Source of the DNA: Escherichia coli
GTDB lineage: Bacteria; Pseudomonadota; Gammaproteobacteria; Enterobacterales; Enterobacteriaceae
DNA: 64,000 nucleotides
Assembly (NCBI RefSeq): GCF_003334315.1
Contig: NZ_QOWR01000009.1
Strand: one strand, 5' to 3'
Positions 9,361-34,111 of the stretch are shown piece after piece. Numbering within the stretch: position 1 is the stretch's first letter; the number at the start of each line of letters is the position of its first letter. A program made the translations under genes and the position numbers. Below the pieces are notes generated by a model that was not told where the DNA came from, did not search any database, and saw nothing but the letters and a program-made list of their open reading frames with translations.

Positions 9361-10608
9361 ATGAAAGGCAGTTATAAATCCCGTTGGGTAATCGTAATCG
9401 TGGTGGTTATCGCCGCCATCGCCGCATTCTGGTTCTGGCAAGGCCGCAATGACTCCCGGAGTGCAGCCCCAGGGGCGACGAAACAAGCGCAGCAATCGCC
9501 AGCGAGTGGTCGCCGTGGTATGCGTTCCGGCCCATTAGCCCCGGTTCAGGCGGCGACCGCCGTAGAACAGGCAGTTCCGCGTTACCTCACCGGGCTTGGC
9601 ACCATTACCGCCGCTAATACTGTTACGGTGCGCAGCCGCGTGGACGGTCAACTGATGGCGTTACATTTCCAGGAAGGCCAGCAGGTCAAAGCAGGCGATT
9701 TACTGGCAGAAATTGACCCCAGCCAGTTCAAAGTTGCATTAGCACAAGCCCAGGGCCAACTGGCAAAAGATAAAGCCACGCTTGCTAACGCCCGCCGTGA
9801 CCTGGCGCGTTATCAGCAACTGGCAAAAACCAATCTCGTATCCCGTCAGGAGCTGGATGCCCAACAGGCGCTGGTCAGTGAAACCGAAGGCACCATTAAG
9901 GCTGATGAAGCAAGCGTCGCCAGCGCGCAGCTGCAACTCGACTGGAGCCGCATCACCGCACCAGTCGATGGTCGCGTTGGTCTCAAGCAGGTTGATGTTG
10001 GTAACCAAATCTCCAGTGGTGATACCACCGGGATCGTGGTGATCACCCAGACGCATCCTATCGATTTGCTCTTTACCCTGCCGGAAAGCGATATCGCTAC
10101 CGTCGTGCAGGCGCAGAAAGCCGGAAAACCGCTGGTGGTAGAAGCCTGGGATCGCACCAACTCGAAGAAATTAAGTGAAGGCACGCTGTTAAGCCTCGAT
10201 AACCAAATCGATGCCACAACCGGTACGATTAAAGTGAAAGCACGCTTTAATAATCAGGATGATGCGCTGTTTCCCAATCAGTTTGTTAACGCGCGCATGT
10301 TAGTCGACACCGAACAAAACGCCGTAGTGATCCCATCAGCCGCCCTGCAAATGGGCAATGAAGGCCATTTTGTCTGGGTGCTGAATAGTGAAAACAAGGT
10401 CAGCAAACATCTGGTGACGCCGGGCATTCAGGACAGTCAGAAAGTGGTGATCCGTGCAGGTATTTCTGCGGGCGATCGCGTGGTGACAGACGGCATTGAT
10501 CGCCTGACCGAAGGGGCGAAAGTGGAAGTGGTGGAAGCCCAGAGCGCCACCACTCCAGAAGAGAAAGCCACCAGCCGCGAATACGCGAAAAAAGGAGCAC
10601 GCTCCTGA
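9361..10608 (+). CDS. mdtA: RND efflux membrane fusion (periplasmic adaptor) protein MdtA (415 aa); ORF-track start 9214 is an upstream extension
   Basis: Start MKGSYKSRW with signal/TM segment, HlyD-like adaptor; stop overlaps the mdtB start. Confidence 0.9.
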
Positions 10609-13600: not shown

Positions 13601-13730
13601 CGGCATGGTCGGCGGTCTGATTGTCAGCCAGGTGCTGACGCTGTTCACCACGCCGGTGATTTATCTGCTGTTCGACCGCCTGGCATTGTGGACCAAAAGT
13701 CGCTTTGCTCGCCATGAAGAGGAGGCGTAA
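10608..13730 (+). CDS. mdtB: RND multidrug efflux transporter subunit MdtB (1040 aa)
   Basis: AcrB-like 12-TM RND permease; expected length and position. Confidence 0.92.
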
Positions 13731-16700
13731 GTGAAGTTTTTTGCCCTCTTCATTTACCGCCCGGTGGCGACGATTTTACTGTCGGTCGCCATTACCCTCT
13801 GCGGCATACTGGGCTTCCGTATGCTGCCGGTCGCCCCGCTGCCGCAGGTCGATTTTCCGGTGATTATGGTCAGCGCCTCGCTGCCCGGTGCGTCGCCGGA
13901 GACAATGGCGTCTTCCGTTGCCACGCCGCTGGAGCGCTCACTTGGGCGCATTGCCGGGGTTAGTGAAATGACCTCCAGTAGTTCGCTCGGCAGCACGCGG
14001 ATTATTTTGCAGTTTGATTTTGACCGGGATATCAACGGCGCAGCGCGTGATGTGCAGGCGGCGATCAACGCTGCACAAAGTTTGCTGCCCAGTGGGATGC
14101 CCAGCCGTCCGACCTATCGCAAAGCGAACCCGTCGGATGCGCCAATTATGATCCTCACGCTGACATCCGATACTTATTCTCAGGGTGAACTGTACGATTT
14201 CGCCTCGACGCAGCTGGCTCCGACGATTTCGCAAATCGACGGTGTTGGTGATGTCGATGTCGGCGGCAGCTCACTGCCCGCCGTACGCGTCGGGCTGAAT
14301 CCGCAGGCGCTGTTTAATCAGGGCGTCTCGCTGGACGACGTACGCACCGCCATCAGCAATGCCAACGTGCGTAAACCACAGGGGGCACTGGAAGATGGCA
14401 CTCACCGCTGGCAGATCCAGACCAATGATGAGCTAAAAACCGCCGCTGAATATCAGCCGTTGATTATTCATTACAACAACGGCGGCGCGGTTCGTCTGGG
14501 TGATGTGGCGACGGTGACTGACTCGGTGCAGGATGTGCGCAACGCCGGGATGACCAACGCCAAACCAGCTATTTTGCTGATGATCCGCAAGCTGCCGGAA
14601 GCCAATATTATCCAGACGGTTGACAGCATCCGGGCAAAATTACCGGAGTTGCAGGAGACCATTCCGGCGGCGATTGATCTGCAAATTGCCCAGGATCGCT
14701 CCCCCACCATTCGCGCCTCGCTGGAAGAAGTCGAGCAAACGCTGATTATCTCGGTGGCGCTGGTGATTCTGGTGGTGTTTTTATTCCTGCGCTCGGGTCG
14801 CGCCACTATTATTCCCGCCGTTGTGGTGCCGGTTTCGCTGATTGGTACGTTTGCGGCGATGTACCTGTGCGGATTCAGTCTCAATAACCTGTCGTTAATG
14901 GCGCTCACCATCGCTACTGGTTTCGTGGTGGATGACGCCATCGTGGTGCTGGAAAACATTGCCCGTCATCTGGAAGCGGGGATGAAACCACTACAGGCCG
15001 CGCTACAAGGTACTCGCGAAGTCGGCTTTACGGTGCTGTCGATGAGTCTGTCACTGGTGGCGGTGTTCCTGCCGCTGCTGTTGATGGGCGGATTGCCGGG
15101 CCGACTGTTACGCGAGTTTGCCGTGACGCTTTCTGTCGCCATTGGTATTTCGTTACTGGTTTCTCTGACATTAACGCCAATGATGTGTGGCTGGATGCTG
15201 AAAGCCAGCAAGCCGCGCGAGCAAAAGCGACTACGTGGTTTTGGTCGCATGTTGGTAGCCCTGCAACAAGGCTACGGCAAGTCACTGAAATGGGTGCTCA
15301 ATCATACCCGTCTGGTGGGCGTGGTGCTGCTTGGCACCATTGCGCTGAATATCTGGCTGTATATCTCGATCCCGAAAACCTTCTTCCCGGAGCAGGACAC
15401 TGGCGTGTTGATGGGCGGGATTCAGGCGGATCAGAGTATTTCGTTTCAGGCGATGCGCGGTAAGTTGCAGGATTTCATGAAAATTATCCGTGACGATCCG
15501 GCAGTGGATAATGTCACCGGCTTTACAGGCGGTTCGCGAGTGAACAGCGGGATGATGTTTATCACCCTCAAGCCACGCGACGAACGCAGCGAAACGGCGC
15601 AGCAAATTATCGACCGTCTGCGCGTAAAACTGGCGAAAGAACCGGGGGCGAATCTGTTCCTGATGGCGGTACAGGATATTCGCGTTGGTGGGCGTCAGTC
15701 GAACGCCAGCTACCAGTACACGTTGTTATCCGACGACCTGGCGGCACTGCGCGAATGGGAGCCGAAAATCCGCAAAAAACTGGCGACGTTGCCGGAACTG
15801 GCGGACGTGAACTCCGATCAGCAGGATAACGGCGCGGAGATGAATCTGGTTTACGACCGCGACACCATGGCACGGCTGGGAATCGACGTACAAGCCGCCA
15901 ACAGCCTGTTAAATAACGCCTTCGGTCAGCGGCAAATCTCGACCATTTACCAGCCGATGAACCAGTATAAAGTGGTGATGGAAGTGGATCCGCGCTATAC
16001 CCAGGACATCAGCGCGCTGGAAAAAATGTTCGTTATCAATAACGAAGGAAAAGCGATCCCGCTGTCGTATTTCGCTAAATGGCAACCGGCGAATGCCCCA
16101 CTATCGGTGAATCATCAGGGATTATCGGCGGCCTCGACCATTTCGTTTAACCTGCCGACCGGAAAATCGCTCTCGGACGCCAGTGCGGCGATCGATCGCG
16201 CAATGACCCAGCTTGGTGTGCCTTCGACGGTGCGCGGCAGTTTTGCCGGCACGGCGCAGGTGTTCCAGGAGACGATGAACTCGCAGGTGATCCTGATTAT
16301 CGCCGCCATCGCCACGGTGTATATCGTGCTGGGTATCCTTTACGAGAGTTACGTACATCCGCTGACGATTCTCTCCACCCTGCCCTCGGCGGGCGTTGGA
16401 GCGCTGCTGGCGCTGGAGCTGTTCAATGCCCCGTTCAGCCTAATCGCCCTGATAGGGATCATGCTATTAATCGGCATCGTGAAGAAAAACGCCATTATGA
16501 TGGTCGATTTTGCGCTTGAAGCCCAACGGCACGGTAACCTGACGCCGCAGGAAGCTATTTTCCAGGCCTGTCTGCTGCGTTTTCGCCCGATTATGATGAC
16601 TACCCTGGCGGCGCTGTTTGGTGCGCTGCCGCTGGTATTGTCGGGCGGCGACGGCTCGGAGCTGCGGCAACCCCTGGGGATCACCATTGTCGGCGGACTG

Positions 16701-21012: not shown

Positions 21013-22374
21013 ATGTTTAAACCGGAACTCCTTTCCCCGGCGGGAACGCTGAAAAATATGCGTTACGCTTTCGCTTATGGCGCAGATGCTGTTTATGCGG
21101 GCCAGCCGCGTTACTCCCTGCGTGTGCGCAACAACGAATTCAACCACGAAAATCTTCAGCTCGGCATCAATGAAGCCCACGCGCTGGGGAAAAAGTTTTA
21201 TGTCGTGGTCAACATTGCACCGCACAACGCCAAGCTGAAAACCTTTATCCGTGACCTGAAACCGGTGGTGGAAATGGGGCCGGATGCGCTGATTATGTCC
21301 GATCCAGGGCTGATTATGCTGGTGCGTGAGCACTTCCCTGAAATGCCGATCCACCTCTCGGTGCAGGCTAACGCCGTAAACTGGGCGACGGTGAAATTCT
21401 GGCAGCAAATGGGCCTGACCCGCGTGATCCTCTCTCGCGAGCTGTCGCTGGAAGAGATTGAAGAGATCCGCAATCAGGTGCCGGATATGGAGATCGAGAT
21501 CTTCGTTCACGGCGCACTGTGCATGGCCTACTCCGGTCGCTGCCTGCTCTCTGGCTATATCAACAAGCGCGATCCGAACCAGGGTACCTGCACCAACGCC
21601 TGCCGCTGGGAGTACAACGTCCAGGAAGGGAAAGAAGATGACGTTGGCAACATCGTACACAAGTACGAGCCGATTCCGGTGCAAAATGTTGAGCCGACGC
21701 TGGGTATCGGCGCGCCAACCGACAAAGTGTTTATGATCGAAGAAGCCCAGCGTCCGGGCGAGTATATGACCGCGTTTGAAGATGAGCACGGCACTTACAT
21801 CATGAACTCGAAAGATCTGCGCGCCATCGCCCATGTAGAACGCCTGACCAAAATGGGCGTGCATTCGCTGAAAATCGAAGGCCGTACTAAATCTTTCTAC
21901 TATTGCGCACGCACCGCACAGGTTTACCGTAAAGCTATCGATGACGCCGCTGCGGGCAAACCGTTCGATACCAGCCTGCTGGAAACTCTGGAAGGTCTGG
22001 CGCATCGTGGCTATACCGAAGGTTTCCTGCGTCGTCATACTCACGACGATTATCAGAACTACGAATACGGTTATTCAGTTTCTGACCGCCAGCAGTTTGT
22101 TGGTGAGTTTACCGGTGAGCGCAAGGGGGACCTCGCGGCGGTAGCGGTGAAAAATAAATTCTCCGTTGGCGACAGCCTTGAGCTGATGACGCCGCAAGGC
22201 AACATTAACTTTACCCTTGAGCACATGGAAAACGCCAAAGGTGAAGCGATGCCGGTCGCACCAGGCGATGGTTATACTGTGTGGCTCCCGGTCCCGCAGG
22301 ATCTTGAGCTCAATTACGCTCTGCTGATGCGTAATTTCTCCGGGGAAACCACGCGTAACCCACACGGTAAGTGA
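21013..22374 (+). CDS. yegQ: Peptidase U32-family protein (453 aa), YegQ/TrhP-type tRNA-modification protein
   Basis: U32 family signature region (HGALCMAYSGRCLLSGY). Confidence 0.88.
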   Translation: MFKPELLSPAGTLKNMRYAFAYGADAVYAGQPRYSLRVRNNEFNHENLQLGINEAHALGKKFYVVVNIAPHNAKLKTFIRDLKPVVEMGPDALIMSDPGLIMLVREHFPEMPIHLSVQANAVNWATVKFWQQMGLTRVILSRELSLEEIEEIRNQVPDMEIEIFVHGALCMAYSGRCLLSGYINKRDPNQGTCTNACRWEYNVQEGKEDDVGNIVHKYEPIPVQNVEPTLGIGAPTDKVFMIEEAQRPGEYMTAFEDEHGTYIMNSKDLRAIAHVERLTKMGVHSLKIEGRTKSFYYCARTAQVYRKAIDDAAAGKPFDTSLLETLEGLAHRGYTEGFLRRHTHDDYQNYEYGYSVSDRQQFVGEFTGERKGDLAAVAVKNKFSVGDSLELMTPQGNINFTLEHMENAKGEAMPVAPGDGYTVWLPVPQDLELNYALLMRNFSGETTRNPHGK

Positions 22375-22458
22375 TTAATTTCGATTATTTTTCCCGGATG
22401 GAAAATTCTTAGAAACCGATCACATACAGCTGCATTTATTAAGGTTATCATCCGTTTC

Positions 22459-22545
22459 GCTGAAAAACATAACCCATAAAATGCTAGCTGTACCAGGAAC
22501 CACCTCCTTAGCCTGTGTAATCTCCCTTACACGGGCTTATTTTTT
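22459..22545 (+). ncRNA. cyaR: CyaR (RyeE) Hfq-dependent sRNA
   Basis: Begins GCTGAAAAACATAACCCATAAAATGCTAGCTGTACCAGGAACCACCTCCTTAGCC and ends in a hairpin plus TTTTTT; matches the CyaR sequence as I recall it. Confidence 0.8.
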
Positions 22546-22703
22546 ATGCATAAGCCCTATCCCTGGTCACCGTCTTCCATTGACCACATCGATAGAATCT
22601 CCCTTCATAGCACGATGCCTTTCACGTAACGGCATCGTGCTCGCACAGGTTCCGGCTAAGCACAACCAGAACGCACATATTTGACGCTTACCAAAAAATA
22701 TTC

Positions 22704-23021
22704 TCACTCTCCACATTTGAATGTCAGACGAGCGACACCATGTAATCCTACACCTTCTGTCTTCAGCTCAACTATTTGCATTTTTTTGCCCTGAGTAACA
22801 CAGAAATGGGCTGCATCATTTTTTACTATATTTTCTGCACCAGATATTCTACCCCTGGCTAAAGAAGCTTCGGCTTCGGTGTAGTATTGGTTATCGAGTT
22901 TACGCTGAATATTACTTTTATATGCAAGGCCAAATTTACCGATACTTGTCTCATCATTATGCACAGCACAACCAGACATAAGAAAAACACTAATTAATGA
23001 TATAGCAGCTATTTTATTCAC
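22704..23021 (-). CDS. yegR: Small lipoprotein-like protein YegR (105 aa from GTG; an upstream ATG at 23036 would add 5 aa)
   Basis: Signal peptide with lipobox-like LMSGC; AT-rich gene. Confidence 0.75.
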   Translation of the reverse strand: MNKIAAISLISVFLMSGCAVHNDETSIGKFGLAYKSNIQRKLDNQYYTEAEASLARGRISGAENIVKNDAAHFCVTQGKKMQIVELKTEGVGLHGVARLTFKCGE

Positions 23022-23434
23022 CTCACCTTCCCCCATTAAATACCAACGACACTCTCTAGTGTTTAAGTATAATAATGGCCGATCATTATAATTGAATAGG
23101 ATTATAATAAATGTTTTGTACAACATTTCCTACATAAGTAGGAATTACAGACTCAGAGGCCCTTCCGGGTAACCCTATGGGAGCTTTAATATATTTGGAA
23201 TAGTATATTGAAGATGCCACTGTTTAGTTGAATATTAGATATTTGCTCTTTTTTCAAATTTACCGGTGGCTACCGTTAACATTCACTGCCCCCATTGCAA
23301 GCTCCTGGTGGTAACAACTGAATTACCCATGCTTGAACTGACTTTTTATCCTCCGACTTTCATCCTGTTCTGACTCCACCTTTTGTTTTCTGCTCTACAC
23401 TATCTACAGACCAATCATAAAGGCACATACGATC

Positions 23435-24334
23435 ATGGCAGAATTTCCCGCCAGCTTACTGATTCTTAATGGCAAAAGTACTGACAATCTACCCTTGCGC
23501 GAAGCAATTATGCTGTTGCGTGAGGAAGGAATGACGATCCATGTGCGGGTCACCTGGGAGAAAGGTGATGCCGCACGATTTGTAGAGGAGGCCCGGAAGT
23601 TGGGCGTCGCAACGGTGATTGCTGGAGGTGGCGATGGCACCATTAATGAAGTTTCTACGGCGTTGATTCAGTGTGAGGGGGATGACATACCCGCGCTGGG
23701 AATTTTACCATTAGGAACCGCCAATGATTTTGCCACCAGCGTAGGGATTCCTGAGGCACTGGATAAGGCGCTGAAACTGGCAATTGCCGGTGACGCCATT
23801 GCGATAGATATGGCGCAGGTCAACAAACAAACCTGTTTTATTAATATGGCGACAGGCGGATTTGGGACGCGTATTACCACAGAAACGCCGGAAAAATTAA
23901 AAGCCGCGCTGGGTAGCGTCTCTTACATCATTCATGGCTTAATGCGTATGGATACTCTGCAACCGGACCGTTGTGAAATCCGCGGTGAAAACTTTCACTG
24001 GCAAGGTGACGCCCTGGTCATTGGTATTGGTAACGGGCGTCAGGCCGGTGGCGGTCAGCAATTGTGTCCGAACGCGTTAATTAACGATGGCTTGCTGCAA
24101 CTGCGCATTTTTACCGGCGATGAAATACTTCCGGCTCTCGTATCAACCTTAAAATCTGACGAAGATAACCCGAATATTATCGAAGGCGCTTCGTCGTGGT
24201 TTGATATTCAGGCACCACACGACATCACCTTTAATCTTGATGGCGAACCGTTGAGTGGGCAAAATTTTCATATTGAAATACTTCCGGCAGCGTTGCGTTG
24301 CCGTCTGCCACCAGATTGCCCGCTTTTACGTTAA
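23435..24334 (+). CDS. yegS: Lipid kinase YegS (299 aa), diacylglycerol-kinase catalytic-domain family
   Basis: DAGK_cat signature (GGDGTINEV). Confidence 0.9.
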
Positions 24335-24343
24335 ATAAAAGCA

Positions 24344-24406
24344 AGCGCAGAAGCAGGATTAGCAGACCGGCATCATCCCTGGGATCTTCTGCGCTCACCC
24401 TTTTTT
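24344..24406 (+). terminator. Long-loop hairpin plus T-tract after yegS, at the left edge of the pentitol island
   Basis: AGCGCAGAAG (24344-24353) pairs with CTTCTGCGCT (24386-24395), then CACCCTTTTTT. Confidence 0.45.
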
Positions 24407-24407
24407 G

Positions 24408-25106
24408 TTACGCAGCTACGGCTAACGCTGCCAGTAATTCATTCATCGATAAATATCTTGCACTCGCCGCATTAAAGCAGGTTTGTTGGGCATCTTCTGA
24501 TACCACAATGGTGTTTATTCCTGCCGCCTGTGCTGCCTGAAAACCACTCACGCTGTCCTCTATAACCAAACAATCTGCAGCAGACAGTTGCAATTCTCGC
24601 AGTGCAGAAAGATAAACTGCCGGATGGGGTTTCCCATGCTTTTCGTCATCAGCACTACAAATCACCGAAAAATAATGCTGAATATTGAGTTTTGTCAGTA
24701 CAGCATCGATCACCTGGTAAGATGAAGAGGTTGCCAGCGCCAGTTGATAGCCACTCCGGCGCAAAAAAAATAACACGTCCTGAACGCCTGGCATCGCTTC
24801 GCCCGTCCCGGCAATCAACGTAGTGATCAGGCGGCGAATCTCACTTTCCAACAGTGCGGGTTCAATGTGTAAATGACAATATTCACACCAGGTTTGGGCA
24901 ATCTCATCCAGCCTTTTACCTTTAGTCAGTCTTATACACTCTTCGTCACTGACACATGCGCCCCACCTTGCCAGTGCTCCCTTTTGTGCCTCACGCCATA
25001 ACCCTTCCGAATCAATGATGACGCCGTCCATATCAAAAATGACTGCTTTACAATTAAACATTGTTCCTCGCAATAAAGCCTGGCACCACACCAGGCTTGT
25101 CGTCAT
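24408..25106 (-). CDS. HAD-superfamily sugar-phosphate phosphatase (beta-phosphoglucomutase-like subfamily), 232 aa from the coupled ATG, or 217 aa if it starts at Met16 (25061)
   Basis: HAD motif I FDMDGVIIDSE, motif II (LATSS), motif III/IV (KPHP ... EDSVSG); its ATG overlaps the stop of the upstream permease (TGATG). Confidence 0.8.
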   Translation of the reverse strand: MTTSLVWCQALLRGTMFNCKAVIFDMDGVIIDSEGLWREAQKGALARWGACVSDEECIRLTKGKRLDEIAQTWCEYCHLHIEPALLESEIRRLITTLIAGTGEAMPGVQDVLFFLRRSGYQLALATSSSYQVIDAVLTKLNIQHYFSVICSADDEKHGKPHPAVYLSALRELQLSAADCLVIEDSVSGFQAAQAAGINTIVVSEDAQQTCFNAASARYLSMNELLAALAVAA

Positions 25107-26383
25107 CAGGAAATGGTGGCGGTCTTCCCTTCACACACTTGCTGATTTGAGAATCCCGGTTGTTCGACGCGAATAAACGGGCAAATAATAAACGCTATCA
25201 CATACAGGGTGGTGTAAGCGATAACCACACCAATAGTACTGAAATAAGGCAGAAGTACCACGGCGATTGCCGGAGCAAGGAAGTTGGACAACCCGGCTGA
25301 AAGGTTATAAACCGAAATAGCTGCTCCTTTATGTTTCGGTTCCAGTGCCGGGAAAACGGCTGCCATCGGTACGAATGCAGCAACAAAGATCCCCAGTGCC
25401 ACCGCAGGTATCAGCGCCATAGCAAAGTTATGACCGAAATGTTGCGGCATGTAGTAGAACGCCAGGCTTGAAAGCGCCATTCCCACGCAACCAAACCAGC
25501 GAACAACTTTCATCCAGCCCATTTTCTCTGCCAGCACGCCCCAGAATACGTTAGAGAAGATGGTGGTAAAGAAGAAGACTGCCCAGACCTGCAACCACTC
25601 AGAGGTGGTAAAGCCCAGCTCATCAACAAACATCATCGGCATAATTACGGCGAATCCGAATAAAGATAAGGTGTTGATAATGCGAACAATACTGGAAAGC
25701 AAAATATTGCGGTTGGTATAAAGCAAAGTCACCGCACGGCCCAGTTCGCTAAACTTCTCTTTTGTGGTTAGGTTTTGCATATGGCGTGGTGTTTCTACTT
25801 TGCGCATAGAAATTAACGCAACAGCGCCACCAACCCCACAGAAGGCCAGCGCCAGCCATAATGTTCCCATTTCGCCAATAAGCGGAATGGTAAAACTGGG
25901 GATGTAGCTGCCGAATACGCCGATACCAATAGAGTAAACTGCCCAGAACCAGCCCAGAGCAGCACTGGTGCTGTCACTGCGTACGTTATGGACAATCGCC
26001 ACAATAAAGGCGTAGAGGAACAGCGGATAGGCTAGGCCACGAATACCATAAAACAGCAGGATTAACCCATAGTTCGCCTGCCCCAGACCAAAGACCAGAA
26101 ACAGCACGTGAAATACGCACCACAGCACAAAGCCGATAAACATGGTTTTTTGTGGCGTAATAATTTCGGCAACTACGCCGGAAACCCAGGCGGAAAGCGC
26201 TGCCGCCAGGCCATAGAGCGTAAAGGCAAAGGAGGCTTCTGCAGGCGTGAAACCCAGTGCTTTAATGTAATGCGACAGGAATGCCAGTTCAAAACCGTCT
26301 CCGGTCATAAAGATGGCAATGGCAATATATCCCCACACCAGATTTAAGGGTAATCCCAGCCATTGTTTATTTGTTAACGACAT
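25106..26383 (-). CDS. dalT: MFS pentitol permease, D-arabinitol transporter type (425 aa)
   Basis: 12-TM MFS; near-identical to the second permease at 34112..35386; sits in the operon with xylulokinase and arabinitol dehydrogenase. Confidence 0.8.
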   Translation of the reverse strand: MSLTNKQWLGLPLNLVWGYIAIAIFMTGDGFELAFLSHYIKALGFTPAEASFAFTLYGLAAALSAWVSGVVAEIITPQKTMFIGFVLWCVFHVLFLVFGLGQANYGLILLFYGIRGLAYPLFLYAFIVAIVHNVRSDSTSAALGWFWAVYSIGIGVFGSYIPSFTIPLIGEMGTLWLALAFCGVGGAVALISMRKVETPRHMQNLTTKEKFSELGRAVTLLYTNRNILLSSIVRIINTLSLFGFAVIMPMMFVDELGFTTSEWLQVWAVFFFTTIFSNVFWGVLAEKMGWMKVVRWFGCVGMALSSLAFYYMPQHFGHNFAMALIPAVALGIFVAAFVPMAAVFPALEPKHKGAAISVYNLSAGLSNFLAPAIAVVLLPYFSTIGVVIAYTTLYVIAFIICPFIRVEQPGFSNQQVCEGKTATIS

Positions 26384-26451
26384 AGTGACCTCGTTTGTAG
26401 GATACAAAACGCCGCTCCGGTGCAAACACCGGAGGGCATTTGTGACAGATG

Positions 26452-27915
26452 TTATTGATTGCGATAGTTCAGGTCGTTGTGATACAGCGCAGTAAACTGC
26501 TGATATCGTTGCATCAGCGCATTATGACGTTCAGGATCGCTGCGCCAGGTTTTGAAGATTTCAGGTTTTTCACACACTGCCGCCAGTGGTTTTCCCGCAG
26601 CAAGACAGGCCAGACGCGCGGCTCCCAGCGCCCCACCCGTTTCACCGCCTTTATGCGTCACCACTGGCATATCGAGAATATCGGCCAGTAACTGCGCCCA
26701 GAATGGACTTCTCGCCCCCCCACCTACCAGCGAGCATTGCTCAATTGCCGTACCGCTTTCTTGCAGGACTCGCAGCCCATCGGCAATACCAAAGCTGACG
26801 CCTTCCAGCACTGCATATCCCATTAGCGCACGCTGACTGGAGTGTGTCAGCGCCCAGAACAATCCCCGGGCATGAGGATCGTTATGTGGCGTACGTTCAC
26901 CAGAAAGATACGGGAGGAACATCGGTGCACTGGCTTTGTCTGCATCAGAAAGTTGGGCAATCTCTTCCAGTAACTCTGTTTCCGTTACCCCCACCAGACG
27001 GCAGAACCATTGCAGACAACTGGCGGCACTGAGCATTACACTCATCTGGTGCCATAAATTCGGTAGTACGTGACAGAAAGCATGGACTGCTGATTGCGGC
27101 GCAGGACGATAGGCATCTGTCACTACAAACAACACCCCGGAAGTTCCCAAAGAAATAAACGCATCTCCGGGAGAAACGGCCCCCACACCAATTGCGCTCA
27201 CGGCGTTATCGCCACCGCCACCAGCAACTACAACCGAAGATGTCAGCCCCCAACGGCTGGCAACTTCAGGGGAAAGAGTGGCAGAAACGTCACAACCTTC
27301 CACCAGTTCCGGCATATTCGCCCGTGTCAGGCCACATTTTTCCAGCAACGAATCTGACCAGTCGCGTTTTTCCACGTCGAGCCACAACGTGCCAGCAGAA
27401 TCCGACATATCGGAAATCTTTTGGCCGGTCATTTTGAAACGCAAATAGTCTTTCGGCAGTAAAACGGTGGAAATGCGCGCAAAGTGCTGCGGCTCATGGC
27501 GCCGTACCCATAGCAATTTGGGGGCGGTAAATCCAGGCATCGCCAGGTTTCCCGCTACCTGATGCAACTCTGGTGCGATCTCTTCCAGCTCCGCACACTC
27601 CTGCGCACTGCGGGTGTCGTTCCATAAAATCGCCGGACGAATCGCCTCTCCTTTTTCATCCAACAGGACGGCACCATGCATTTGACCAGAAAGGCCAATG
27701 GCTTTGATCGCCTGCCAGTGGTGACCGCATTTTTCCCGCAGGGTCGACATTAAATATTCCGTCGCTTCCCACCAGGCTTGCGGCGATTGTTCTGACCAGT
27801 GTGGATGGGGCCGCTGAATGGTCAGCGGCGCACTATGGGTGGCAACAATTTCATTGTTTTCATCAATGACCAGCGCCTTAACTTCCGATGTGCCCAGATC
27901 GATACCCAGATACAT
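26452..27915 (-). CDS. dalK: FGGY-family D-xylulokinase (487 aa)
   Basis: XylB-like N-terminus MYLGIDLGTSEVKA and FGGY C-terminal domain. Confidence 0.85.
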   Translation of the reverse strand: MYLGIDLGTSEVKALVIDENNEIVATHSAPLTIQRPHPHWSEQSPQAWWEATEYLMSTLREKCGHHWQAIKAIGLSGQMHGAVLLDEKGEAIRPAILWNDTRSAQECAELEEIAPELHQVAGNLAMPGFTAPKLLWVRRHEPQHFARISTVLLPKDYLRFKMTGQKISDMSDSAGTLWLDVEKRDWSDSLLEKCGLTRANMPELVEGCDVSATLSPEVASRWGLTSSVVVAGGGGDNAVSAIGVGAVSPGDAFISLGTSGVLFVVTDAYRPAPQSAVHAFCHVLPNLWHQMSVMLSAASCLQWFCRLVGVTETELLEEIAQLSDADKASAPMFLPYLSGERTPHNDPHARGLFWALTHSSQRALMGYAVLEGVSFGIADGLRVLQESGTAIEQCSLVGGGARSPFWAQLLADILDMPVVTHKGGETGGALGAARLACLAAGKPLAAVCEKPEIFKTWRSDPERHNALMQRYQQFTALYHNDLNYRNQ

Positions 27916-27928
27916 AACCGCCTCCTGG

Positions 27929-29296
27929 TTAGTTAATTAACGCGTAGACGTCAGCGATTTTTTCGCGCAACAACGCGGCAAAATCTTCACGTTCGGTTAA
28001 ATCGCCAAACAGCGCTTTATCACTGGCATAAACAGCGACGGGATCGGCAGACTGGAACATTGCATGGACAGCTGGTGCATCAAGGATGCCATCCTGATAT
28101 TCATAGGGCAGTTTGCCGTGATGCCATTGCTCCATGAATACGTAAAACAGTGCAGGTAACATGGCGGTGGCATTCGGGCGAACGCCTCGCTGGTAGCACT
28201 CTCGCAGTGTGGGGGCAATCATCGCCGGAATTTTCGAGAAACCATCCGCAGCGACGCGTTGGTTGGTGTCCTGAATATGTGGATTGGTAAAACGCTTGAG
28301 TACAACATCACGGTAGGTTGGCAAATCGATACCGTTATCGCCCAAGCAAGGAATGACATCTTCCGTCACGTAGCGGTCGGCAATCTGATAGATAAAATCG
28401 GTCATTGTGCTTTCGTGGATATATTTTTGACCGATTAACGTACCTGCCCAGGCGATGCAACTGTGTGAAGAGTTAAGAATGCGAATCTTCGCCTCTTCAT
28501 AGGGGATTACCGACGCCACCAGTTCGACACCGACCTTCTCCAGTGCCGGACGGACATCACGGAAATTATCTTCCACGACCCACTGGATAAAGGTTTCGCC
28601 CATTACCGGCGCTTTATCGGCAATACCCGTTTGAGCCTTGATCCGTGCCGGAAGTTCTGCTGCCGGACGAGGCGTAATGCGGTCAACCATGGTATTCGGG
28701 CAAGTGGTATTTGTACTCAGCCAGTCGATGACATCCTGTTTGCCAGTTAGCTGGAGAAACTCAACCAGGCCATCATGGAAACGTTCACCATTATGGCGCA
28801 CGTTATCGCAATTCAGCAGGGTTAGTGGTCCGGCGTTATTTGCCATACGTGCTTCGAGGATACGGGTAATAACACCGTAAATTGTTTTGCATCCCCCTTT
28901 AAGATCTGCCGCTAAATCAGGATTGTTAACTTCCAGTTTGTGACTGGTATTCAGGTAGTACCCGCCTTCGGTGACGGTGAAAGCAATCACTTTTGTCTTC
29001 GGATCTGCCCCTTCAGCAATCAGCGGTTGTAAATCTGCCTGCCACGGTATCAACTTCTGAATTGAGGTGATCTCTTCATATTCGCTTACCCCTTCCGGGC
29101 TGACGGTTTCCAGCACATAGCGACCTTTCTGTGCACTGAGTGCCTGTACGACATGTTCAGCATCATTACGAATATTGCCCGCAGCAATGCTCCAGCGTTT
29201 ATCGCCCATCACCTGCAAACGGTGTAGATACCACGCCTGATGTGCGCGATGAAAAGAACCTAACCCGATGTGCAGCCATGTAAATTGTTCGTTCAT
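27929..29296 (-). CDS. dalD: D-arabinitol 4-dehydrogenase, mannitol dehydrogenase family (455 aa; ORF-track start 29341 is an extension)
   Basis: Long-chain mannitol-DH family Rossmann N-terminus ([13 protein letters not shown]); GGAG RBS before the ATG at 29296. Confidence 0.85.
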
Positions 29297-29508
29297 TGTT
29301 TCGTTCTCCATTGACGTTATGGCTGAACTGTAATCGAACATTTGAGTTAATTAAGAGCGTTAGATCACAAAAGAACAATTGACCAAAAAAATTACAAATG
29401 ACCAAATCAAAGCAATAAACTTGCCTCGCGGTAAAGCTATGGCCAAAATGACGCTAATCAGTTGCGGGATTTTCACGATTCCGCACGCCACTTTTGAGGT
29501 AGGGAAAC

Positions 29509-30450
29509 GTGAACAAAGAAGATGACATCAGGCTCGATCAAAAAGTACGGGCGGCATGGATGTACTACATTGCCGGACTTAATCAGAGTGAAATCGCAAG
29601 TCAGTTAGGTACTTCACGGCCAGTGGTTCAACGCCTGATAGCAGCAGCGAAAGACGAAGGGATTGTGTCGATTGGATTGCATCATCCGGTTGCCAACTGT
29701 CTCGATTATGCCCAACTGTTAAAGGAAAAGTACCAATTAACCGACTGCAATATTATGCCGGTTTACAGTATTGAAAGTACGCTCGACAGCGTGACATTTG
29801 GCTGTTATCAACTGATGGCGCGTTACTTACAGGGTGACAAACCGACCATCGTTGGTATTGGTTCTGGCTTAACGTTGAAGAAAACCATTAAACGTATCGA
29901 TTTTGATAGTCAGAATACCCGCTGTGTGGCGCTGATTAGCGCCATGAATGAACACGGGCAATGTAACTATTACGACGACGTACCGCTGCTTTTGGCGAGA
30001 AAAATTCAGGGAAAATATTACCAGTGGCCAGCTCCACGCTATGCTCAGTCCCGCGAAGAGTACCAAATGTGGTCAACCAATCGATTGTTCCGCAACGTCT
30101 CTACCGTAGCGCGTGACTCTGATGTTATTTTCGTGGGTATTGGTGCTTTAGGTCGTCAAAGCCCTATTTTCAAAGATGGCTTTATTGATGAGCAGCAACT
30201 GGAAGAGTTAACAGCACGCGGAGGCGTTGGTGAAATCCTCGGACGCTTTATTGATGCTGAAGGCAATGTTGTGGAAAGCCAGATCAACCAGATGATCACC
30301 AGCCATGATATCCGCGAAAGCAACTGCCCACGTATCGCAGCTGCCTGTGGTGAGGATAAACGTCCGGCGATCCTCGCAGCATTAAAAGGTGGGTGGATCA
30401 ACGGTCTGGTCACCGATGAACACACCGCACGCTGGTTGCTGACACGTTAA
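29509..30450 (+). CDS. dalR: SorC/DeoR-type sugar-binding transcriptional regulator (313 aa), probable D-arabinitol operon repressor
   Basis: N-terminal HTH (SEIASQLGTSRPVVQRLIAAAKDEG) plus sugar-binding C-terminal domain; divergent from the arabinitol operon. Confidence 0.75.
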   Translation: MNKEDDIRLDQKVRAAWMYYIAGLNQSEIASQLGTSRPVVQRLIAAAKDEGIVSIGLHHPVANCLDYAQLLKEKYQLTDCNIMPVYSIESTLDSVTFGCYQLMARYLQGDKPTIVGIGSGLTLKKTIKRIDFDSQNTRCVALISAMNEHGQCNYYDDVPLLLARKIQGKYYQWPAPRYAQSREEYQMWSTNRLFRNVSTVARDSDVIFVGIGALGRQSPIFKDGFIDEQQLEELTARGGVGEILGRFIDAEGNVVESQINQMITSHDIRESNCPRIAAACGEDKRPAILAALKGGWINGLVTDEHTARWLLTR

Positions 30451-30452
30451 TC

Positions 30453-31484
30453 TCAGCTGACAACATTCAGGCTCGGAATAAGTTGTGGCGGTATCTCAAT
30501 GCGACGCAGGGTGGTATCGCCAGAATCCACAATTTCAAACACTTTTTCGAGCATGGCGGGTACATCCTGACGAACCATATCGATATCGTGCCCGAGCAGA
30601 GAAACAAAAGGATCCCAGTCAAAACACCCCATTGGCGGTTGATTGGCTCCCGTCTGCCCGGTTTGCGCCAGCCAGCGAACCACCCCTTCAAGAGAGATTG
30701 TCGAGTTGACGAATAACCCGTGAAGCGATACTGCAGAGCTTTGGAAGACCTCTTTCAGTAATCCCTCTACGCGAGCAGAAGAGTAGCCGGTAACCAGTTT
30801 ATGTTCATCCGGTACGGTTATCCCCAAAGCCTGATGGGCATCGACAAAACCACATAAACGTTCAGCAGTATTGTTATCGCTTATACGTCCACCGACAAAA
30901 GTCAAAGGTGCCAGCTTGCCATAGCGTTTCTGGCTGTTGGCTAAAATTCTTTCCGTCAATAATTTCGCCCCCATATAGTTATCAGAAATGATCGACGGCG
31001 CCAGTGTTCCCGGCAGATCCAGATTCAGTGTCGGTACGCCCGCTTGCTGGCACATTTGGGCTATTTTATCCGGTTGAGTCGCTCCGGTAGCAATGACCCA
31101 ATCCACCTGCCAGGAGAGCATGGCGCGAGCAGCCTCAATTTCCAGTTCTGGCTGTCGCCGCGTACAGGTGATGATTGGCAGTAATCCTCTGGCACGCGCC
31201 ATCTCTTCAAATTTTTCGGCAATCGATCCAAAGTATCGGTTGTCATATTTCGGCACAATCATGCCAATAACGTTGGATTTTTTACTGCGCAGTAAACTTG
31301 CCTGCCGATTAATGGCATATCCCTGCTCTTCCGCAATACGGGTGACCTTCTCAGCCAGCTTTGCGCTGATGCGTCGCTTTTTCCAGTTGCCATTCAAAAT
31401 AGCGCTTACCGCACTGGCAGAAACGCCGGTTAATTCTGCCAGGTCGTAAATGGTCGTTTTCTTCGTTTTCTCAACGCGTGTCAC
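30453..31484 (-). CDS. rbtR: LacI-family transcriptional regulator (343 aa), probable ribitol operon repressor
   Basis: LacI-type HTH (TIYDLAELTGVSASAVSAILNG) and periplasmic-binding-protein-like effector domain; divergent from the ribitol operon and convergent with the other regulator. Confidence 0.75.
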   Translation of the reverse strand: MTRVEKTKKTTIYDLAELTGVSASAVSAILNGNWKKRRISAKLAEKVTRIAEEQGYAINRQASLLRSKKSNVIGMIVPKYDNRYFGSIAEKFEEMARARGLLPIITCTRRQPELEIEAARAMLSWQVDWVIATGATQPDKIAQMCQQAGVPTLNLDLPGTLAPSIISDNYMGAKLLTERILANSQKRYGKLAPLTFVGGRISDNNTAERLCGFVDAHQALGITVPDEHKLVTGYSSARVEGLLKEVFQSSAVSLHGLFVNSTISLEGVVRWLAQTGQTGANQPPMGCFDWDPFVSLLGHDIDMVRQDVPAMLEKVFEIVDSGDTTLRRIEIPPQLIPSLNVVS

Positions 31485-31541
31485 AAATTTGCCTCTTCAT
31501 TTTGAATGTCTCTTGCTGAGAATTTAAGCAAGTGCTAGATC

Positions 31542-31559
31542 TGCTTCATCGATTGAGCA
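31542..31559. promoter_or_regulatory. Candidate LacI-type operator in the ribitol regulator/operon intergenic region
   Basis: TGCTTCATCGATTGAGCA: 14 of 18 positions self-complementary around a central ATCGAT. Confidence 0.35.
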
Positions 31560-31642
31560 GTTTGCTTCACACGGCAGCTAAATTCCCGTTCAGTGCGTGC
31601 AAGCAAACAGAGACTATAAATTCGCCCTGGTAAAAGGATTAT

Positions 31643-32395
31643 ATGATGAATCACTCTGTGCCCTCTATGAATACTCCCCTTAATGGCAAAGTTGCAGCTA
31701 TCACTGGCGCTGCGTCAGGTATTGGCCTGCAATGTGCAAAAACGCTGCTCGATGCAGGAGCAAAGGTAGTATTGATTGACCGGGAAGGCGACAAACTGCA
31801 CAAGATTGTCGCTGAGTTAGGCGAAAACGCGTACGCGCTGCAACTCGATCTCTTCAATAATCAGCAAGTCGATAACATGCTGGCGGACATTATCGAACTG
31901 GCGGGTGGGCTGGATATTTTTCATGCCAATGCAGGCGCTTATATTGGCGGCCCAGTGACTGAAGGTGATCCAGATGTCTGGGATCGTGTGTTAAATCTGA
32001 ATATAAATGCGGCGTTTCGCTGTGTCCGTGCAGTCCTGCCGCATATGATTGCGCAGAGGTCGGGCGATATAATTTTTACCAGTTCCATCGCGGGCGTCGT
32101 TCCGGTTATCTGGGAACCGATCTACACCGCGTCCAAATTTGCCGTTCAGGCATTCGTACACACTACCCGCCGCCAGGTTTCTCAATATGGCGTGCGTGTG
32201 GGTGCGGTGCTGCCAGGACCAGTAGTCACTGCCCTGCTTGATGACTGGCCAAAAGCCAAAATGGAAGAAGCCCTGGCAAATGGTAGCCTGATGCAACCGA
32301 TTGAAGTGGCGGAATCAGTATTGTTTATGGTGACCCGCTCGAAAAATGTCACCGTGCGAGATTTAGTGATCCTGCCTGGCAGTGTCGATCTGTAA
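31643..32395 (+). CDS. rbtD: Ribitol 2-dehydrogenase, short-chain dehydrogenase/reductase family (250 aa)
   Basis: SDR cofactor motif [13 protein letters not shown] and catalytic YTASK; matches Klebsiella ribitol dehydrogenase as I recall it. Confidence 0.88.
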
Positions 32396-34010: not shown

Positions 34011-34111
34011 TTAACCAGCCGCCTGACGCTGTTTTCAGGCAATCACTAATAACGACTCACTCCGGTAATATCCCGGAGTGCATTCATCTGCACCCTAAAA
34101 ACGAGGTTTAT

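What the first reader, a model, noticed from the sequence alone, without database searches (positions are those of the whole stretch)
24408..25106. HAD sugar-phosphatase translationally coupled to the arabinitol operon
The permease stop and the phosphatase ATG overlap (TGATG), so the phosphatase is a fourth cistron of the arabinitol operon. The canonical pathway (arabinitol to xylulose to xylulose-5-P) needs no phosphatase. It could be a pentitol-phosphate or pentulose-phosphate phosphatase that relieves sugar-phosphate stress, or part of an alternative phosphorylated route. The start codon is ambiguous (Met1 coupled, or Met16 at 25061 giving a typical HAD N-terminus).
Basis: partly seen in the sequence, partly recalled or inferred. 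Interest (0 to 1): 0.6.

Follow-up and report, generated by a model that had tools for sequence, protein, structure and literature searches.

The report
Accessory phosphatase gene ending arabitol operon
This is a real, conserved but unstudied sugar-phosphate phosphatase gene, the last gene of the E. coli D-arabitol utilisation operon and probably a safety valve against toxic phosphorylated by-products; it most likely starts at the second methionine behind a conserved RNA hairpin, not at the ATG that overlaps the permease stop codon.

Summary
The window is the E. coli yegS-fbaB locus, which here carries the D-arabitol (dal/atl) and ribitol (rbt/rtl) genes. The ORF at 24408-25106 (-) exists, and its first ATG does overlap the dalT stop codon (TGATG). 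That ATG is probably not the start. All orthologues, and NCBI's annotation, begin at Met16 (25061). Met16 has a Shine-Dalgarno site and Met1 has none. In a second E. coli allele (E2348/69) the overlapping ATG runs into a stop codon after six codons.

The 44 nt between dalT and Met16 encode a GC-rich hairpin. It is conserved in structure, with compensatory changes, in all 13 spacers read. The gene order dalD-dalK-dalT-HAD holds in every relative whose dal context could be read (about ten genera, down to about 50% HAD identity). A strong bidirectional terminator follows the HAD gene, so "fourth cistron" is supported and "translationally coupled" is not.

The protein is an intact HAD-IA phosphatase. 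It forms its own clade, distinct from HxpB/YniC (about 30% identity), is under purifying selection, and evolves 3-4 times faster than its operon partners.

The best reading is a low-expressed safety-valve phosphatase for pentitol or pentulose phosphates, as proposed for B. subtilis AraL. No paper on this gene was found. It is a modestly interesting new member of a known kind.

The parts
24408..25061 (-). HAD-IA phosphatase gene, 217 codons plus stop, starting at Met16 (WP_000481293.1 'HAD family hydrolase'); the conserved fourth gene of the dal operon
   Evidence: PGAP call; orthologue N-termini; Pfam and NCBIfam; AlphaFold pLDDT 96.1 with best fold match 1TE2, TM 0.87; dN/dS 0.06-0.09
25062..25106 (-). 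15-codon in-frame extension from the ATG that overlaps the dalT stop (TGATG); probably not translated as part of the phosphatase
   Evidence: No SD pairing, -0.6 kcal/mol; closed by a stop codon or out of frame in other Escherichia alleles; all five codon differences from allele L091 change the amino acid while the hairpin is kept
25076..25098 (-). Intercistronic RNA hairpin AAGCCUGGU-GUGGU-GCCAGGCUU, followed by U-rich UUUAUUG
   Evidence: Fold -14.4 kcal/mol; a hairpin is present in 13/13 spacers; RNAalifold gives 8 pairs, 5 with compensatory changes; 94.8% of cells paired, 0/500 shuffles reach this
25065..25069 (-). Shine-Dalgarno GAGGA for Met16, left unpaired 3' of the hairpin
   Evidence: Anti-SD duplex -5.9 kcal/mol; a purine-rich GAGG/GGAG-type site lies at the same place in most orthologous spacers
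24337..24402 (.). Long GC-rich hairpin flanked by a U-run on each strand: bidirectional terminator between the HAD gene and convergent yegS; the 3' end of the dal operon
   Evidence: Fold -33.9 kcal/mol, z -4.3, 0/200 shuffles as stable; sequence read
25106..26383 (-). dalT, D-arabinitol MFS transporter (PGAP start; the longest ORF runs to 26425)
   Evidence: TIGR00897 513.9 bits against cut-off 375; annotation
26407..26441 (-). Second conserved intercistronic hairpin, in the dalK-dalT spacer
   Evidence: z -4.0 in the window; present in 10/10 taxa with different stem sequences
26452..27915 (-). dalK, XylB-type D-xylulokinase
   Evidence: TIGR01312 636 bits; annotation
27929..29296 (-). dalD, D-arabinitol 4-dehydrogenase (PGAP start)
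   Evidence: NF043014 755.7 bits against cut-off 600; annotation
29509..30450 (+). dalR, divergently transcribed sugar-binding (SorC/DeoR-like) regulator
   Evidence: Annotation; conserved next to dalD in all loci

Best explanation
The gene encodes a 217-residue cytoplasmic HAD-IA phosphatase with a C1 cap. It starts at Met16 (25061) and is the promoter-distal fourth gene of the D-arabitol operon dalD-dalK-dalT-HAD.

Shown: it belongs to its own orthologous group, found wherever we could read a dal operon, and that group is a paralogue of the hexitol/2-deoxyglucose-6-P phosphatase HxpB (YniC). Its catalytic motifs are intact and it is under purifying selection. A conserved hairpin separates it from dalT. 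The operon terminator follows it.

Inferred: it is transcribed from the D-arabitol-inducible dal promoter by read-through past the hairpin and translated from its own Shine-Dalgarno site. The hairpin (a leaky terminator in Escherichia, a 3'-end stabiliser of the upstream mRNA elsewhere) keeps its level below that of the catabolic enzymes. My estimates: operon membership about 0.9, Met16 start about 0.85.

Inferred function (about 0.55): a safety valve that hydrolyses phosphorylated dead-end or overflow products which arise when cells are flooded with D-arabitol. Candidates are D-arabitol phosphate or xylitol phosphate, made by promiscuous kinases (DalK, RbtK) or by hexitol PTS transporters, and/or excess D-xylulose-5-P. 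It would return them to the free pentitol or pentulose pool. The canonical pathway does not need it, which fits its faster sequence evolution.
For: Gene order and junction:
- Synteny across about ten genera down to about 50% HAD identity.
- In Pectobacterium and Aeromonas the HAD gene lies between the dal genes and tal-tkt genes on the same strand, 45-79 nt apart, so there it is internal to the gene string.
- No sigma-70-like site at the junction; strong terminator only after the HAD gene.
- A comparable hairpin also precedes dalT, so such hairpins are compatible with co-expression.

Start codon.

Hairpin.

Protein:
- Motif residues are invariant across 47 sequences: D10, T111/S112, K144, E168/D169.
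- The AlphaFold model is confident. The best fold matches are YniC (TM 0.87), the MtlD phosphatase domain with bound mannitol-1-P (TM 0.85) and CbbY, also solved with bound xylulose-1,5-bisphosphate (TM 0.86).
- The dal-linked clade is monophyletic in 195/200 bootstraps and excludes the non-linked Vibrio and Photobacterium homologues.
- dN/dS is 0.06-0.09, and dN is 3-4 times that of DalR/D/K/T.

Physiological rationale and precedent:
- D-arabitol is toxic to gat-positive E. coli; PMC5094792, citing Reiner 1977 on hexitol phosphotransferases, uses 10 mM D-arabitol to select gat-negative mutants.
- B. subtilis AraL is a HAD phosphatase inside the arabinose operon. It is dispensable for growth, active on xylulose-5-P, held down by a hairpin, and proposed to detoxify accumulated sugar phosphates (PMC3207120).
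Against: - There is no expression, transcript-end or enzyme data for this gene. Co-transcription and substrate are inferred only.
- In Escherichia, C. koseri and V. fluvialis the hairpin has a U-rich tail and could terminate most transcripts, which would leave the HAD gene poorly expressed or dependent on an unseen promoter.
- A phosphatase acting on xylulose-5-P would create an ATP-wasting futile cycle with DalK.
- HAD-IA enzymes are promiscuous, so gene context may over-suggest specificity.
- The gene's fast evolution and occasional truncated copies show it is dispensable in some lineages.
- Use of Met1 in addition to Met16 in the window-type allele is not excluded.
- We did not survey dal operons independently of the HAD gene, so dal operons that lack it may exist.
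Confidence: 0.55

Rival explanations
1. One reading: the phosphatase starts at Met1 (25106) and is translationally coupled to dalT through the TGATG overlap, giving a 232-aa protein.
For: The overlap and an open in-frame stretch exist in the window allele and in allele L091. Some gene callers deposit the 232-aa form. Termination-reinitiation can work without a Shine-Dalgarno site (general knowledge).
Against: No SD pairing, -0.6 kcal/mol. The extension is absent from all orthologues. It is closed by TAA in E2348/69 and out of frame in L090 and C. koseri. The differences from L091 are all non-synonymous yet preserve the RNA hairpin. PGAP chooses Met16.
Confidence: 0.1
2. Separate transcription unit: the hairpin after dalT is the real operon terminator, and the HAD gene is expressed from its own promoter, not regulated by D-arabitol. 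Its adjacency would then be a frozen accident.
For: A GC hairpin followed by UUUAUU, UCUUUUU or UUUUUUAU occurs in Escherichia, C. koseri and V. fluvialis. The HAD gene evolves at a different rate from the other dal genes.
Against: Seven of the 13 spacers lack a U-tract. Only 13-21 nt lie between the hairpin and the ATG in the spacers where a simple hairpin was delimited, and no promoter-like site is found in or upstream of the spacer. The same kind of hairpin precedes dalT. In Pectobacterium and Aeromonas further pentose-phosphate genes follow the HAD gene on the same strand. Adjacency is kept over deep divergence.
Confidence: 0.1
3. Generic housekeeping phosphatase: an HxpB-like enzyme for 2-deoxyglucose-6-P, hexitol phosphates or nucleotides, with no specific role in pentitol metabolism.
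For: The best family match is HxpB (171.6 bits). The nearest structure is YniC. HAD-IA enzymes are broadly promiscuous (general knowledge). The gene shows weaker constraint than its operon partners.
Against: E. coli already has hxpB: the E. coli C genome paper lists this gene as 'yniC_1', unique to strain C, which implies a second copy. The score is below the HxpB equivalog cut-off, identity is about 30%, and the clade is separate. The clade is found only next to dalT in every context read, while the nearest non-linked homologues fall outside it.
Confidence: 0.15
4. Biosynthetic or overflow route run in reverse: HAD dephosphorylates xylulose-5-P, DalD reduces xylulose to D-arabitol and DalT exports it, for redox balance or as an osmolyte, as in fungal arabitol production.
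For: The gene set contains the three activities needed. DalD reactions are reversible (general knowledge). The link to tal-tkt in two genera ties the operon to pentose-phosphate pool control.
Against: The operon also contains the kinase, which opposes this route. The dal operon is classically induced by D-arabitol and used for its catabolism (own knowledge: Reiner 1975; Heuel et al. 1998). There is no evidence that these bacteria excrete arabitol.
Confidence: 0.05

Closest known systems
HxpB / YniC of E. coli K-12 (hexitol-phosphate and 2-deoxyglucose-6-P phosphatase; PDB 1TE2)
   Same: Same HAD-IA fold with a four-helix C1 cap: TM 0.87, rmsd 2.2 A. Best sequence-family hit (NF008087). Shared cap motif T-x-G-x-R-x-D and W58.
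   Different: Only about 30% identical. Scores 171.6 bits, below the 191-bit equivalog cut-off. Forms a separate clade in 195/200 bootstraps. Has clade-specific invariant cap cysteines C42 and C59. Always sits after dalT, whereas hxpB is a stand-alone housekeeping gene.
AraL of Bacillus subtilis (HAD phosphatase inside the araABDLMNPQ-abfA operon; PMC3207120)
   Same: A phosphatase embedded in a pentose-type catabolic operon whose pathway does not need it. Dispensable for growth, active on xylulose-5-P and other sugar phosphates. An mRNA hairpin at its 5' end limits its production. Proposed role is detoxification of accumulated sugar phosphates.
   Different: AraL belongs to HAD subfamily IIA (NagD-like) and is not homologous in the cap. 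Its hairpin sequesters the ribosome-binding site, whereas here the SD lies 3' of the hairpin and is unpaired in most species. AraL sits mid-operon in a Gram-positive organism.
YigL of E. coli and Salmonella (HAD phosphatase of the SgrS sugar-phosphate stress response)
   Same: Concept: a HAD phosphatase that relieves toxicity of non-metabolisable sugar phosphates, with expression set post-transcriptionally within a polycistronic mRNA (own knowledge: Papenfort et al. 2013, Cell).
   Different: YigL is a Cof-type HAD-IIB enzyme controlled by a small RNA and is not part of a catabolic operon. No sRNA or Rfam element was found here.
Phosphatase domain of Acinetobacter baumannii MtlD (mannitol-1-phosphate phosphatase; PDB 7OCS) and CbbY (xylulose-1,5-bisphosphate phosphatase; PDB 4UAU)
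   Same: Close HAD-IA structural neighbours solved with an open-chain polyol phosphate and a pentulose bisphosphate bound: TM 0.85-0.86; profile hits at 1e-29 and 1e-21. This shows the scaffold accepts such substrates. CbbY is a metabolite-damage-control enzyme.
   Different: 26% identity; different domain architecture (MtlD is fused to a dehydrogenase); different pathways (osmolyte synthesis; Rubisco inhibitor removal).

Membership tests
HAD superfamily, subfamily IA (variant 3) | Four catalytic motifs: DxDx(T/V) nucleophile and acid, S/T, K, and (D/E)D | tested here: met
   D10-M-D12-G-V, T111/S112, K144 and E168-D169 are invariant or nearly so in 47 sequences
HAD superfamily, subfamily IA (variant 3) | Score above the curated cut-off of TIGR01509 / Pfam HAD_2 | tested here: met
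   TIGR01509 63.9 bits against 29.4; PF13419 E=1.9e-34
HAD superfamily, subfamily IA (variant 3) | Rossmannoid core with a helical C1 cap inserted after motif I | tested here: met
   AlphaFold model pLDDT 96.1 with helices 19-86 between strand 1 and the core; TM 0.87 to 1TE2
HxpB (hexitol phosphatase B) equivalog, NF008087 | Whole-protein score at or above the curated 191-bit cut-off; orthology to E. coli YniC | tested here: not met
   171.6 bits; 30-31% identity; separate clade in 195/200 bootstraps; it co-exists with the resident yniC
HxpB (hexitol phosphatase B) equivalog, NF008087 | Phosphatase activity on sorbitol-6-P, mannitol-1-P and 2-deoxyglucose-6-P | not testable with these tools
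   Needs an enzyme assay
beta-phosphoglucomutase / YqaB subfamily (TIGR02009, TIGR01990) | Score above the curated cut-offs | tested here: not met
   116.2 against 153.35 and 91.3 against 189.4 bits
Enterobacterial D-arabinitol (dal/atl) operon | Same-strand position directly after dalD-dalK-dalT, conserved across taxa | tested here: met
   15 loci carry both HAD and DalD hits; these cover about ten genera with complete or part dal context
Enterobacterial D-arabinitol (dal/atl) operon | Co-transcription with dalDKT and induction by D-arabitol | not testable with these tools
   Indirect evidence only: no promoter-like site at the junction and a terminator after the HAD gene
Translationally coupled gene pair (overlapping stop/start) | The overlapping ATG is the conserved, functional start | tested here: not met
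   Not conserved, no SD, and closed or out of frame in sister alleles. Actual use in vivo was not testable.
Intrinsic (Rho-independent) terminator | GC-rich hairpin immediately followed by a U-tract | tested here: inconclusive
   Hairpin in 13/13 spacers. At least 5 U in the next 8 nt in six of them: four Escherichia alleles and V. fluvialis by the script, and C. koseri by eye from the sequence. The consensus scan did not flag the site.
AraL-type operon-embedded detoxifying phosphatase | HAD subfamily IIA (NagD family) membership | tested here: not met
   The protein is subfamily IA. The resemblance to AraL is functional and architectural only.

The most novel reading that the evidence does not exclude
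The gene encodes a dedicated D-arabitol-phosphate (pentitol-phosphate) phosphatase, a metabolite-repair enzyme. It would be induced by D-arabitol to undo the mis-phosphorylation of D-arabitol by hexitol PTS transporters (Gat, Srl, Fru) and by promiscuous pentulokinases. If so, it would be the missing molecular counterpart of the classical D-arabitol/xylitol toxicity and of the 'genotypic exclusion' between the gat and atl-rtl loci. It would also help explain how lineages such as E2348/69 and O55:H7 carry gat and dal side by side.
Probability: 0.22. Interest if true: 0.55.

Novelty: new member of a known kind. Interest (0 to 1): 0.33.

Why it matters
The dal/rbt pentitol genes are a textbook system for operon evolution and for toxic side reactions of catabolic enzymes, yet the operon is described in the literature I know of as three structural genes plus a repressor. 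This work shows a fourth, conserved gene that has only generic database names. If it is a pentitol- or pentulose-phosphate phosphatase, it adds a built-in damage-control step to a classical pathway and gives a simple experimental handle on D-arabitol and xylitol toxicity: does the gene rescue gat-constitutive K-12 on 10 mM D-arabitol? It would also be useful for engineering xylitol, arabitol or xylulose production. The covarying intercistronic hairpins are a clean example of operon punctuation that sets unequal expression. Practically, the 232-aa database entries are probably mis-started.

Tried and rejected
- Genome-collection scan with the HAD alignment. Only L002 and L003 were useful. Contexts were then obtained by exact-protein look-ups.
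- Literature. No paper on this gene. The E. coli C genome paper only lists it as 'yniC_1'. The Scangos & Reiner 1978, Reiner 1977 and Di Luccio 2007 papers are not held, so statements about kinase promiscuity rest on my memory. The D-arabitol toxicity of gat-positive cells is confirmed second-hand.
- Rfam scan of 22000-32000. There is no described RNA family at either hairpin, only CyaR elsewhere.
- Consensus promoter/terminator scan. Nothing at the dalT-HAD junction; the hairpin was found only by cross-species alignment.
- REP element, sRNA or mini-ORF as explanations of the spacer. Rejected because the stem sequences differ between taxa while pairing is kept, and the ORFs opened by the overlapping ATG differ in frame and length.
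- Plasmid search. Only chromosome-like records, with no sign of plasmid carriage. The Photobacterium homologue is not dal-linked.
- Substrate inference from the structure. The fold search gives polyol-phosphate and pentulose-bisphosphate binders as neighbours, but this cannot decide between xylulose-5-P and pentitol phosphates.
Full report
WHAT THE WINDOW IS. The 9.1-kb stretch 22400-31500 is 100% identical to many E. coli chromosomes. At least 80% of it is present in 329 of 5,426 complete genomes. In the annotated record the order is mdtBCD-baeSR-yegP-yegQ-yegR-yegS, then on the opposite strand 'HAD family hydrolase', 'RbtT/DalT/CsbX MFS transporter', xylB-type xylulokinase and dalD. These are followed by two regulators, the ribitol genes (SDR oxidoreductase, pentulose kinase, second transporter) and fbaB. 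This is the classical atl/rtl (dal/rbt) pentitol locus of E. coli C-type strains. The E. coli C genome paper lists the same genes as strain-specific, including 'yniC_1, 2-deoxyglucose-6-phosphate phosphatase', without comment.

THE OBSERVATION. The ORF at 24408-25106 (-) exists, and its first ATG shares the A of the dalT TGA stop (TGATG). A second in-frame ATG lies at 25061. So the literal observation is correct. TG after a stop codon is expected about once in 16 cases by chance (my estimate), and several results argue against this ATG as the start.
- PGAP annotates the 217-aa form.
- All 17 orthologues aligned, 49-80% identical, begin at the Met16 position.
- Met16 is preceded by GAGGA, with anti-SD pairing of -5.9 kcal/mol. 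That is similar to dalD (-6.4) and dalT (-6.6). Met1 has -0.6.
- In the second E. coli allele, found in E2348/69, O55:H7 and others (27 genomes, about 77% nucleotide identity), the overlapping ATG reads ATG GAG GCA AGC CTG GTG TAA.
- In allele L090 a 1-nt indel puts it out of frame. In C. koseri the equivalent ATG is also out of frame.
- Between the window and allele L091, the only other allele where the frame stays open, all five differing codons change the amino acid (for example W to N and C to R), while the RNA stem is kept or strengthened.
Both the 232-aa and 217-aa forms circulate in databases under generic names only.

THE SPACER IS AN RNA ELEMENT. Aligning the dalT-HAD junction from ten taxa showed an inverted repeat at the same place with different sequences. 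Each of 12 spacers (43-60 nt) folds into one GC-rich hairpin of 8-13 bp, -14 to -26 kcal/mol, with z-scores of -1.7 to -4.4 against dinucleotide shuffles. In the spacers where a simple hairpin was delimited, it begins 6-11 nt after the stop codon and ends 13-21 nt before the ATG. RNAalifold finds 8 consensus pairs, 5 of them with double compensatory changes. In the pair count 94.8% of cells are paired, against 81% in shuffles (0/500 shuffles reach the observed value) and 24-52% when the partner columns are slid. In the window the hairpin is AAGCCUGGU-GUGGU-GCCAGGCUU (25098-25076), followed by UAUUGCGAGGAACA-AUG.

A U-rich tail of at least 5 of 8 nt follows the stem in the four Escherichia alleles and V. 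fluvialis by the script, and in C. koseri by eye from the sequence. It does not follow the stem in the seven other taxa. So the conserved feature is the hairpin, not a canonical terminator. Rfam has nothing at this site.

As a control I folded the other long spacer of the operon, dalK-dalT (68 nt). It also carries a conserved hairpin in 10/10 taxa (z -4.0 in the window), and a homologous hairpin lies in the mirror-image rbtK-rbtT spacer. Because dalT is needed for the pathway and sits behind such a hairpin, these elements are compatible with co-expression. They most plausibly grade expression along the operon, through partial termination and/or protection of upstream mRNA segments from 3' exonucleases. 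That role is an inference.

IS IT PART OF THE OPERON? Exact-protein look-ups of orthologues returned their neighbourhoods.
- The order dalR (divergent), dalD, dalK, dalT, HAD is found in Klebsiella variicola, Citrobacter koseri, Pectobacterium, Vibrio fluvialis, Raoultella, Cedecea, two further Escherichia alleles, Enterobacter sp. R1 and Superficieibacter.
- In Mangrovibacter only dalT and HAD were called as genes, but tblastn finds DalR, DalD and DalK upstream.
- In Enterobacter hormaechei the contig begins inside dalT. In Aeromonas caviae dalT is disrupted and dalR was not found.
- tblastn confirms all four or five partners in each locus that is long enough.
- In Pectobacterium and Aeromonas, transaldolase and transketolase genes follow the HAD gene on the same strand at 45-79 nt, so there the HAD gene is internal.
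- The two homologues at 48-49% identity that are not next to dal genes (Vibrio spartinae, Photobacterium) fall outside the dal-linked clade, which is monophyletic in 195/200 NJ bootstraps.
- In the window no sigma-70-like site lies near the junction.
- The 73-nt gap to convergent yegS folds into a -33.9 kcal/mol hairpin (z -4.3) flanked by T-runs on both strands, that is, a bidirectional terminator.
Together these results support 'fourth cistron'. Co-transcription itself is not shown.

THE PROTEIN.
- Family scores: Pfam HAD_2 and Hydrolase; TIGR01509 (HAD-IA v3) above its cut-off. The best specific model is HxpB at 171.6 bits, below its 191-bit cut-off. The beta-PGM/YqaB, YieH and HxpA models score far lower.
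- Nearest solved protein: E. coli YniC/HxpB (1TE2), phmmer 2e-28 and about 30% identity.
- Model: AlphaFold2 on 47 sequences gives pLDDT 96.1 and pTM 0.91. Foldseek ranks 1TE2 first (TM 0.87). It is followed by the Acinetobacter MtlD phosphatase domain with bound mannitol-1-phosphate (TM 0.85) and CbbY, also solved with bound xylulose-1,5-bisphosphate (TM 0.86).
- Catalytic residues are invariant. The clade-specific invariant residues include two cap cysteines, C42 and C59.
- Selection: dN/dS against the other Escherichia alleles and C. koseri is 0.06-0.09, so the gene is maintained. Its dN is 3-4 times that of DalR, DalD, DalK and DalT in the same genome pairs (52-82% against 65-94% amino-acid identity). 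This fits an accessory role.

HOW IT MOST LIKELY WORKS. The canonical route (D-arabitol to D-xylulose to xylulose-5-P) needs no phosphatase, so the gene must serve something around the pathway. Three lines point to damage control.
- Its closest characterised relatives act on hexitol and deoxy-sugar phosphates. Its structural neighbours bind open-chain polyol or pentulose phosphates.
- D-arabitol is toxic to E. coli that express the galactitol system. [quoted passage not shown] From memory, not verified here: E. coli xylulokinase also phosphorylates D-arabitol and xylitol weakly (Di Luccio et al. 2007), and D-ribulokinase makes toxic products from the non-cognate pentitol (Scangos & Reiner 1979). 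A cell flooded with D-arabitol therefore makes dead-end pentitol phosphates, and a phosphatase induced by D-arabitol would remove them.
- There is a direct precedent. B. subtilis AraL is a HAD phosphatase inside the arabinose operon. It is dispensable, promiscuous (including xylulose-5-P), held at low level by a 5' hairpin, and proposed to clear accidentally accumulated sugar phosphates (PMC3207120).
The link to tal-tkt in two genera suggests that xylulose-5-P overload is also a real problem for this operon, so an overflow-valve role on xylulose-5-P is an equally reasonable sub-hypothesis. The hairpin-limited, promoter-distal position would keep such an enzyme scarce enough to avoid a costly futile cycle. 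All of this paragraph is inference.

COMPARISON AND NOVELTY. The protein is a member of HAD-IA: motifs, curated cut-off and fold were all tested and met. It is not an HxpB equivalog: it falls below the cut-off, forms a separate clade, and co-exists with the resident yniC. It works like AraL or YigL-type detoxifying phosphatases but is not related to them at subfamily level. I found no publication on it, and databases give only generic names. It is therefore a new, uncharacterised member of a known kind. A specialist would find it a sensible addition to a classical operon rather than a surprise.

LIMITS. No expression or biochemical data were available. The structure-conservation test uses related sequences and an alignment that partly follows the hairpin. 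The synteny sample was chosen from HAD homologues, so dal operons lacking the HAD gene may exist and were not surveyed. dS is saturated for most pairs, so dN/dS values are approximate.

Noticed in passing
window 26407-26441 (-), dalK-dalT spacer; window 34011-34111 (+), rbtK-rbtT spacer: Both kinase-transporter spacers carry a conserved GC hairpin (CUCCGGUG...CACCGGAG type), followed by the shared motif CCCUxAAAACGAGGU before the transporter start. The dal hairpin is present in 10/10 taxa with changed stems. The two mirror-image operons appear to share this punctuation.
   Followed up: partly
L095 (E. coli E2348/69) 1-9800; 27 of 5,426 genomes: A second, very divergent allele of the whole dal operon (dS about 1.1-1.35 against the window allele) sits next to gatD-gatR in E2348/69, O55:H7 and related strains. 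The rbt genes there are decayed (E2348/69) or apparently intact (O55:H7). So gat and dal do coexist, and the classical 'genotypic exclusion' of gat against atl-rtl is not absolute.
   Followed up: partly
Loci L082, L083, L086, L088, L091, L095 against the window: The HAD gene evolves 3-4 times faster in dN than DalR/D/K/T in the same genome pairs, while dN/dS stays at or below about 0.09. It is the least constrained gene of the operon.
   Followed up: yes
P0003 / L090 7001-7648 (Escherichia sp. MR-type allele): Motif I reads DMNGV instead of DMDGV: the Asp+2 general acid/base is replaced by Asn in a cluster of 38 sequences. This allele may be catalytically crippled. E2348/69 itself has DMDGV.
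   Followed up: partly
L086 7730-10698 (Pectobacterium); L087 7755-10713 (Aeromonas caviae): In these genera the dal-HAD gene string continues with transaldolase and transketolase paralogues. In Aeromonas the string lies beside an integrase and an HNH-domain gene, and dalT is reduced to a 62-aa remnant.
   Followed up: no
L096 (E. coli PSJ-32-1) 4670-6228: An IS1-associated deletion has removed the whole pentitol island. It leaves only the 3' 228 nt of the HAD gene next to yegS and a remnant of rbtT next to fbaB.
   Followed up: no
window 22457-22542 (+): CyaR (RyeE) small RNA, a full-length Rfam match at 100.7 bits, between yegQ and yegR.
   Followed up: no
L082, L085, L092 (Klebsiella, Enterobacter, Raoultella) 7960-14440: In these genera a mandelate-racemase-like gene plus a peptide-type ABC transporter is inserted between the HAD gene and yegS. 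In Escherichia and C. koseri the HAD gene abuts yegS directly. So the dal locus occupies the same chromosomal neighbourhood across Enterobacteriaceae.
   Followed up: no
window 25106-26425 and 27929-29341 (-): The longest ORFs of dalT (439 aa, TTG) and dalD (470 aa) exceed the annotated and orthologue-supported lengths (425 and 455 aa). As with the HAD gene, the longest-ORF starts in this operon are upstream of the likely true starts.
   Followed up: no
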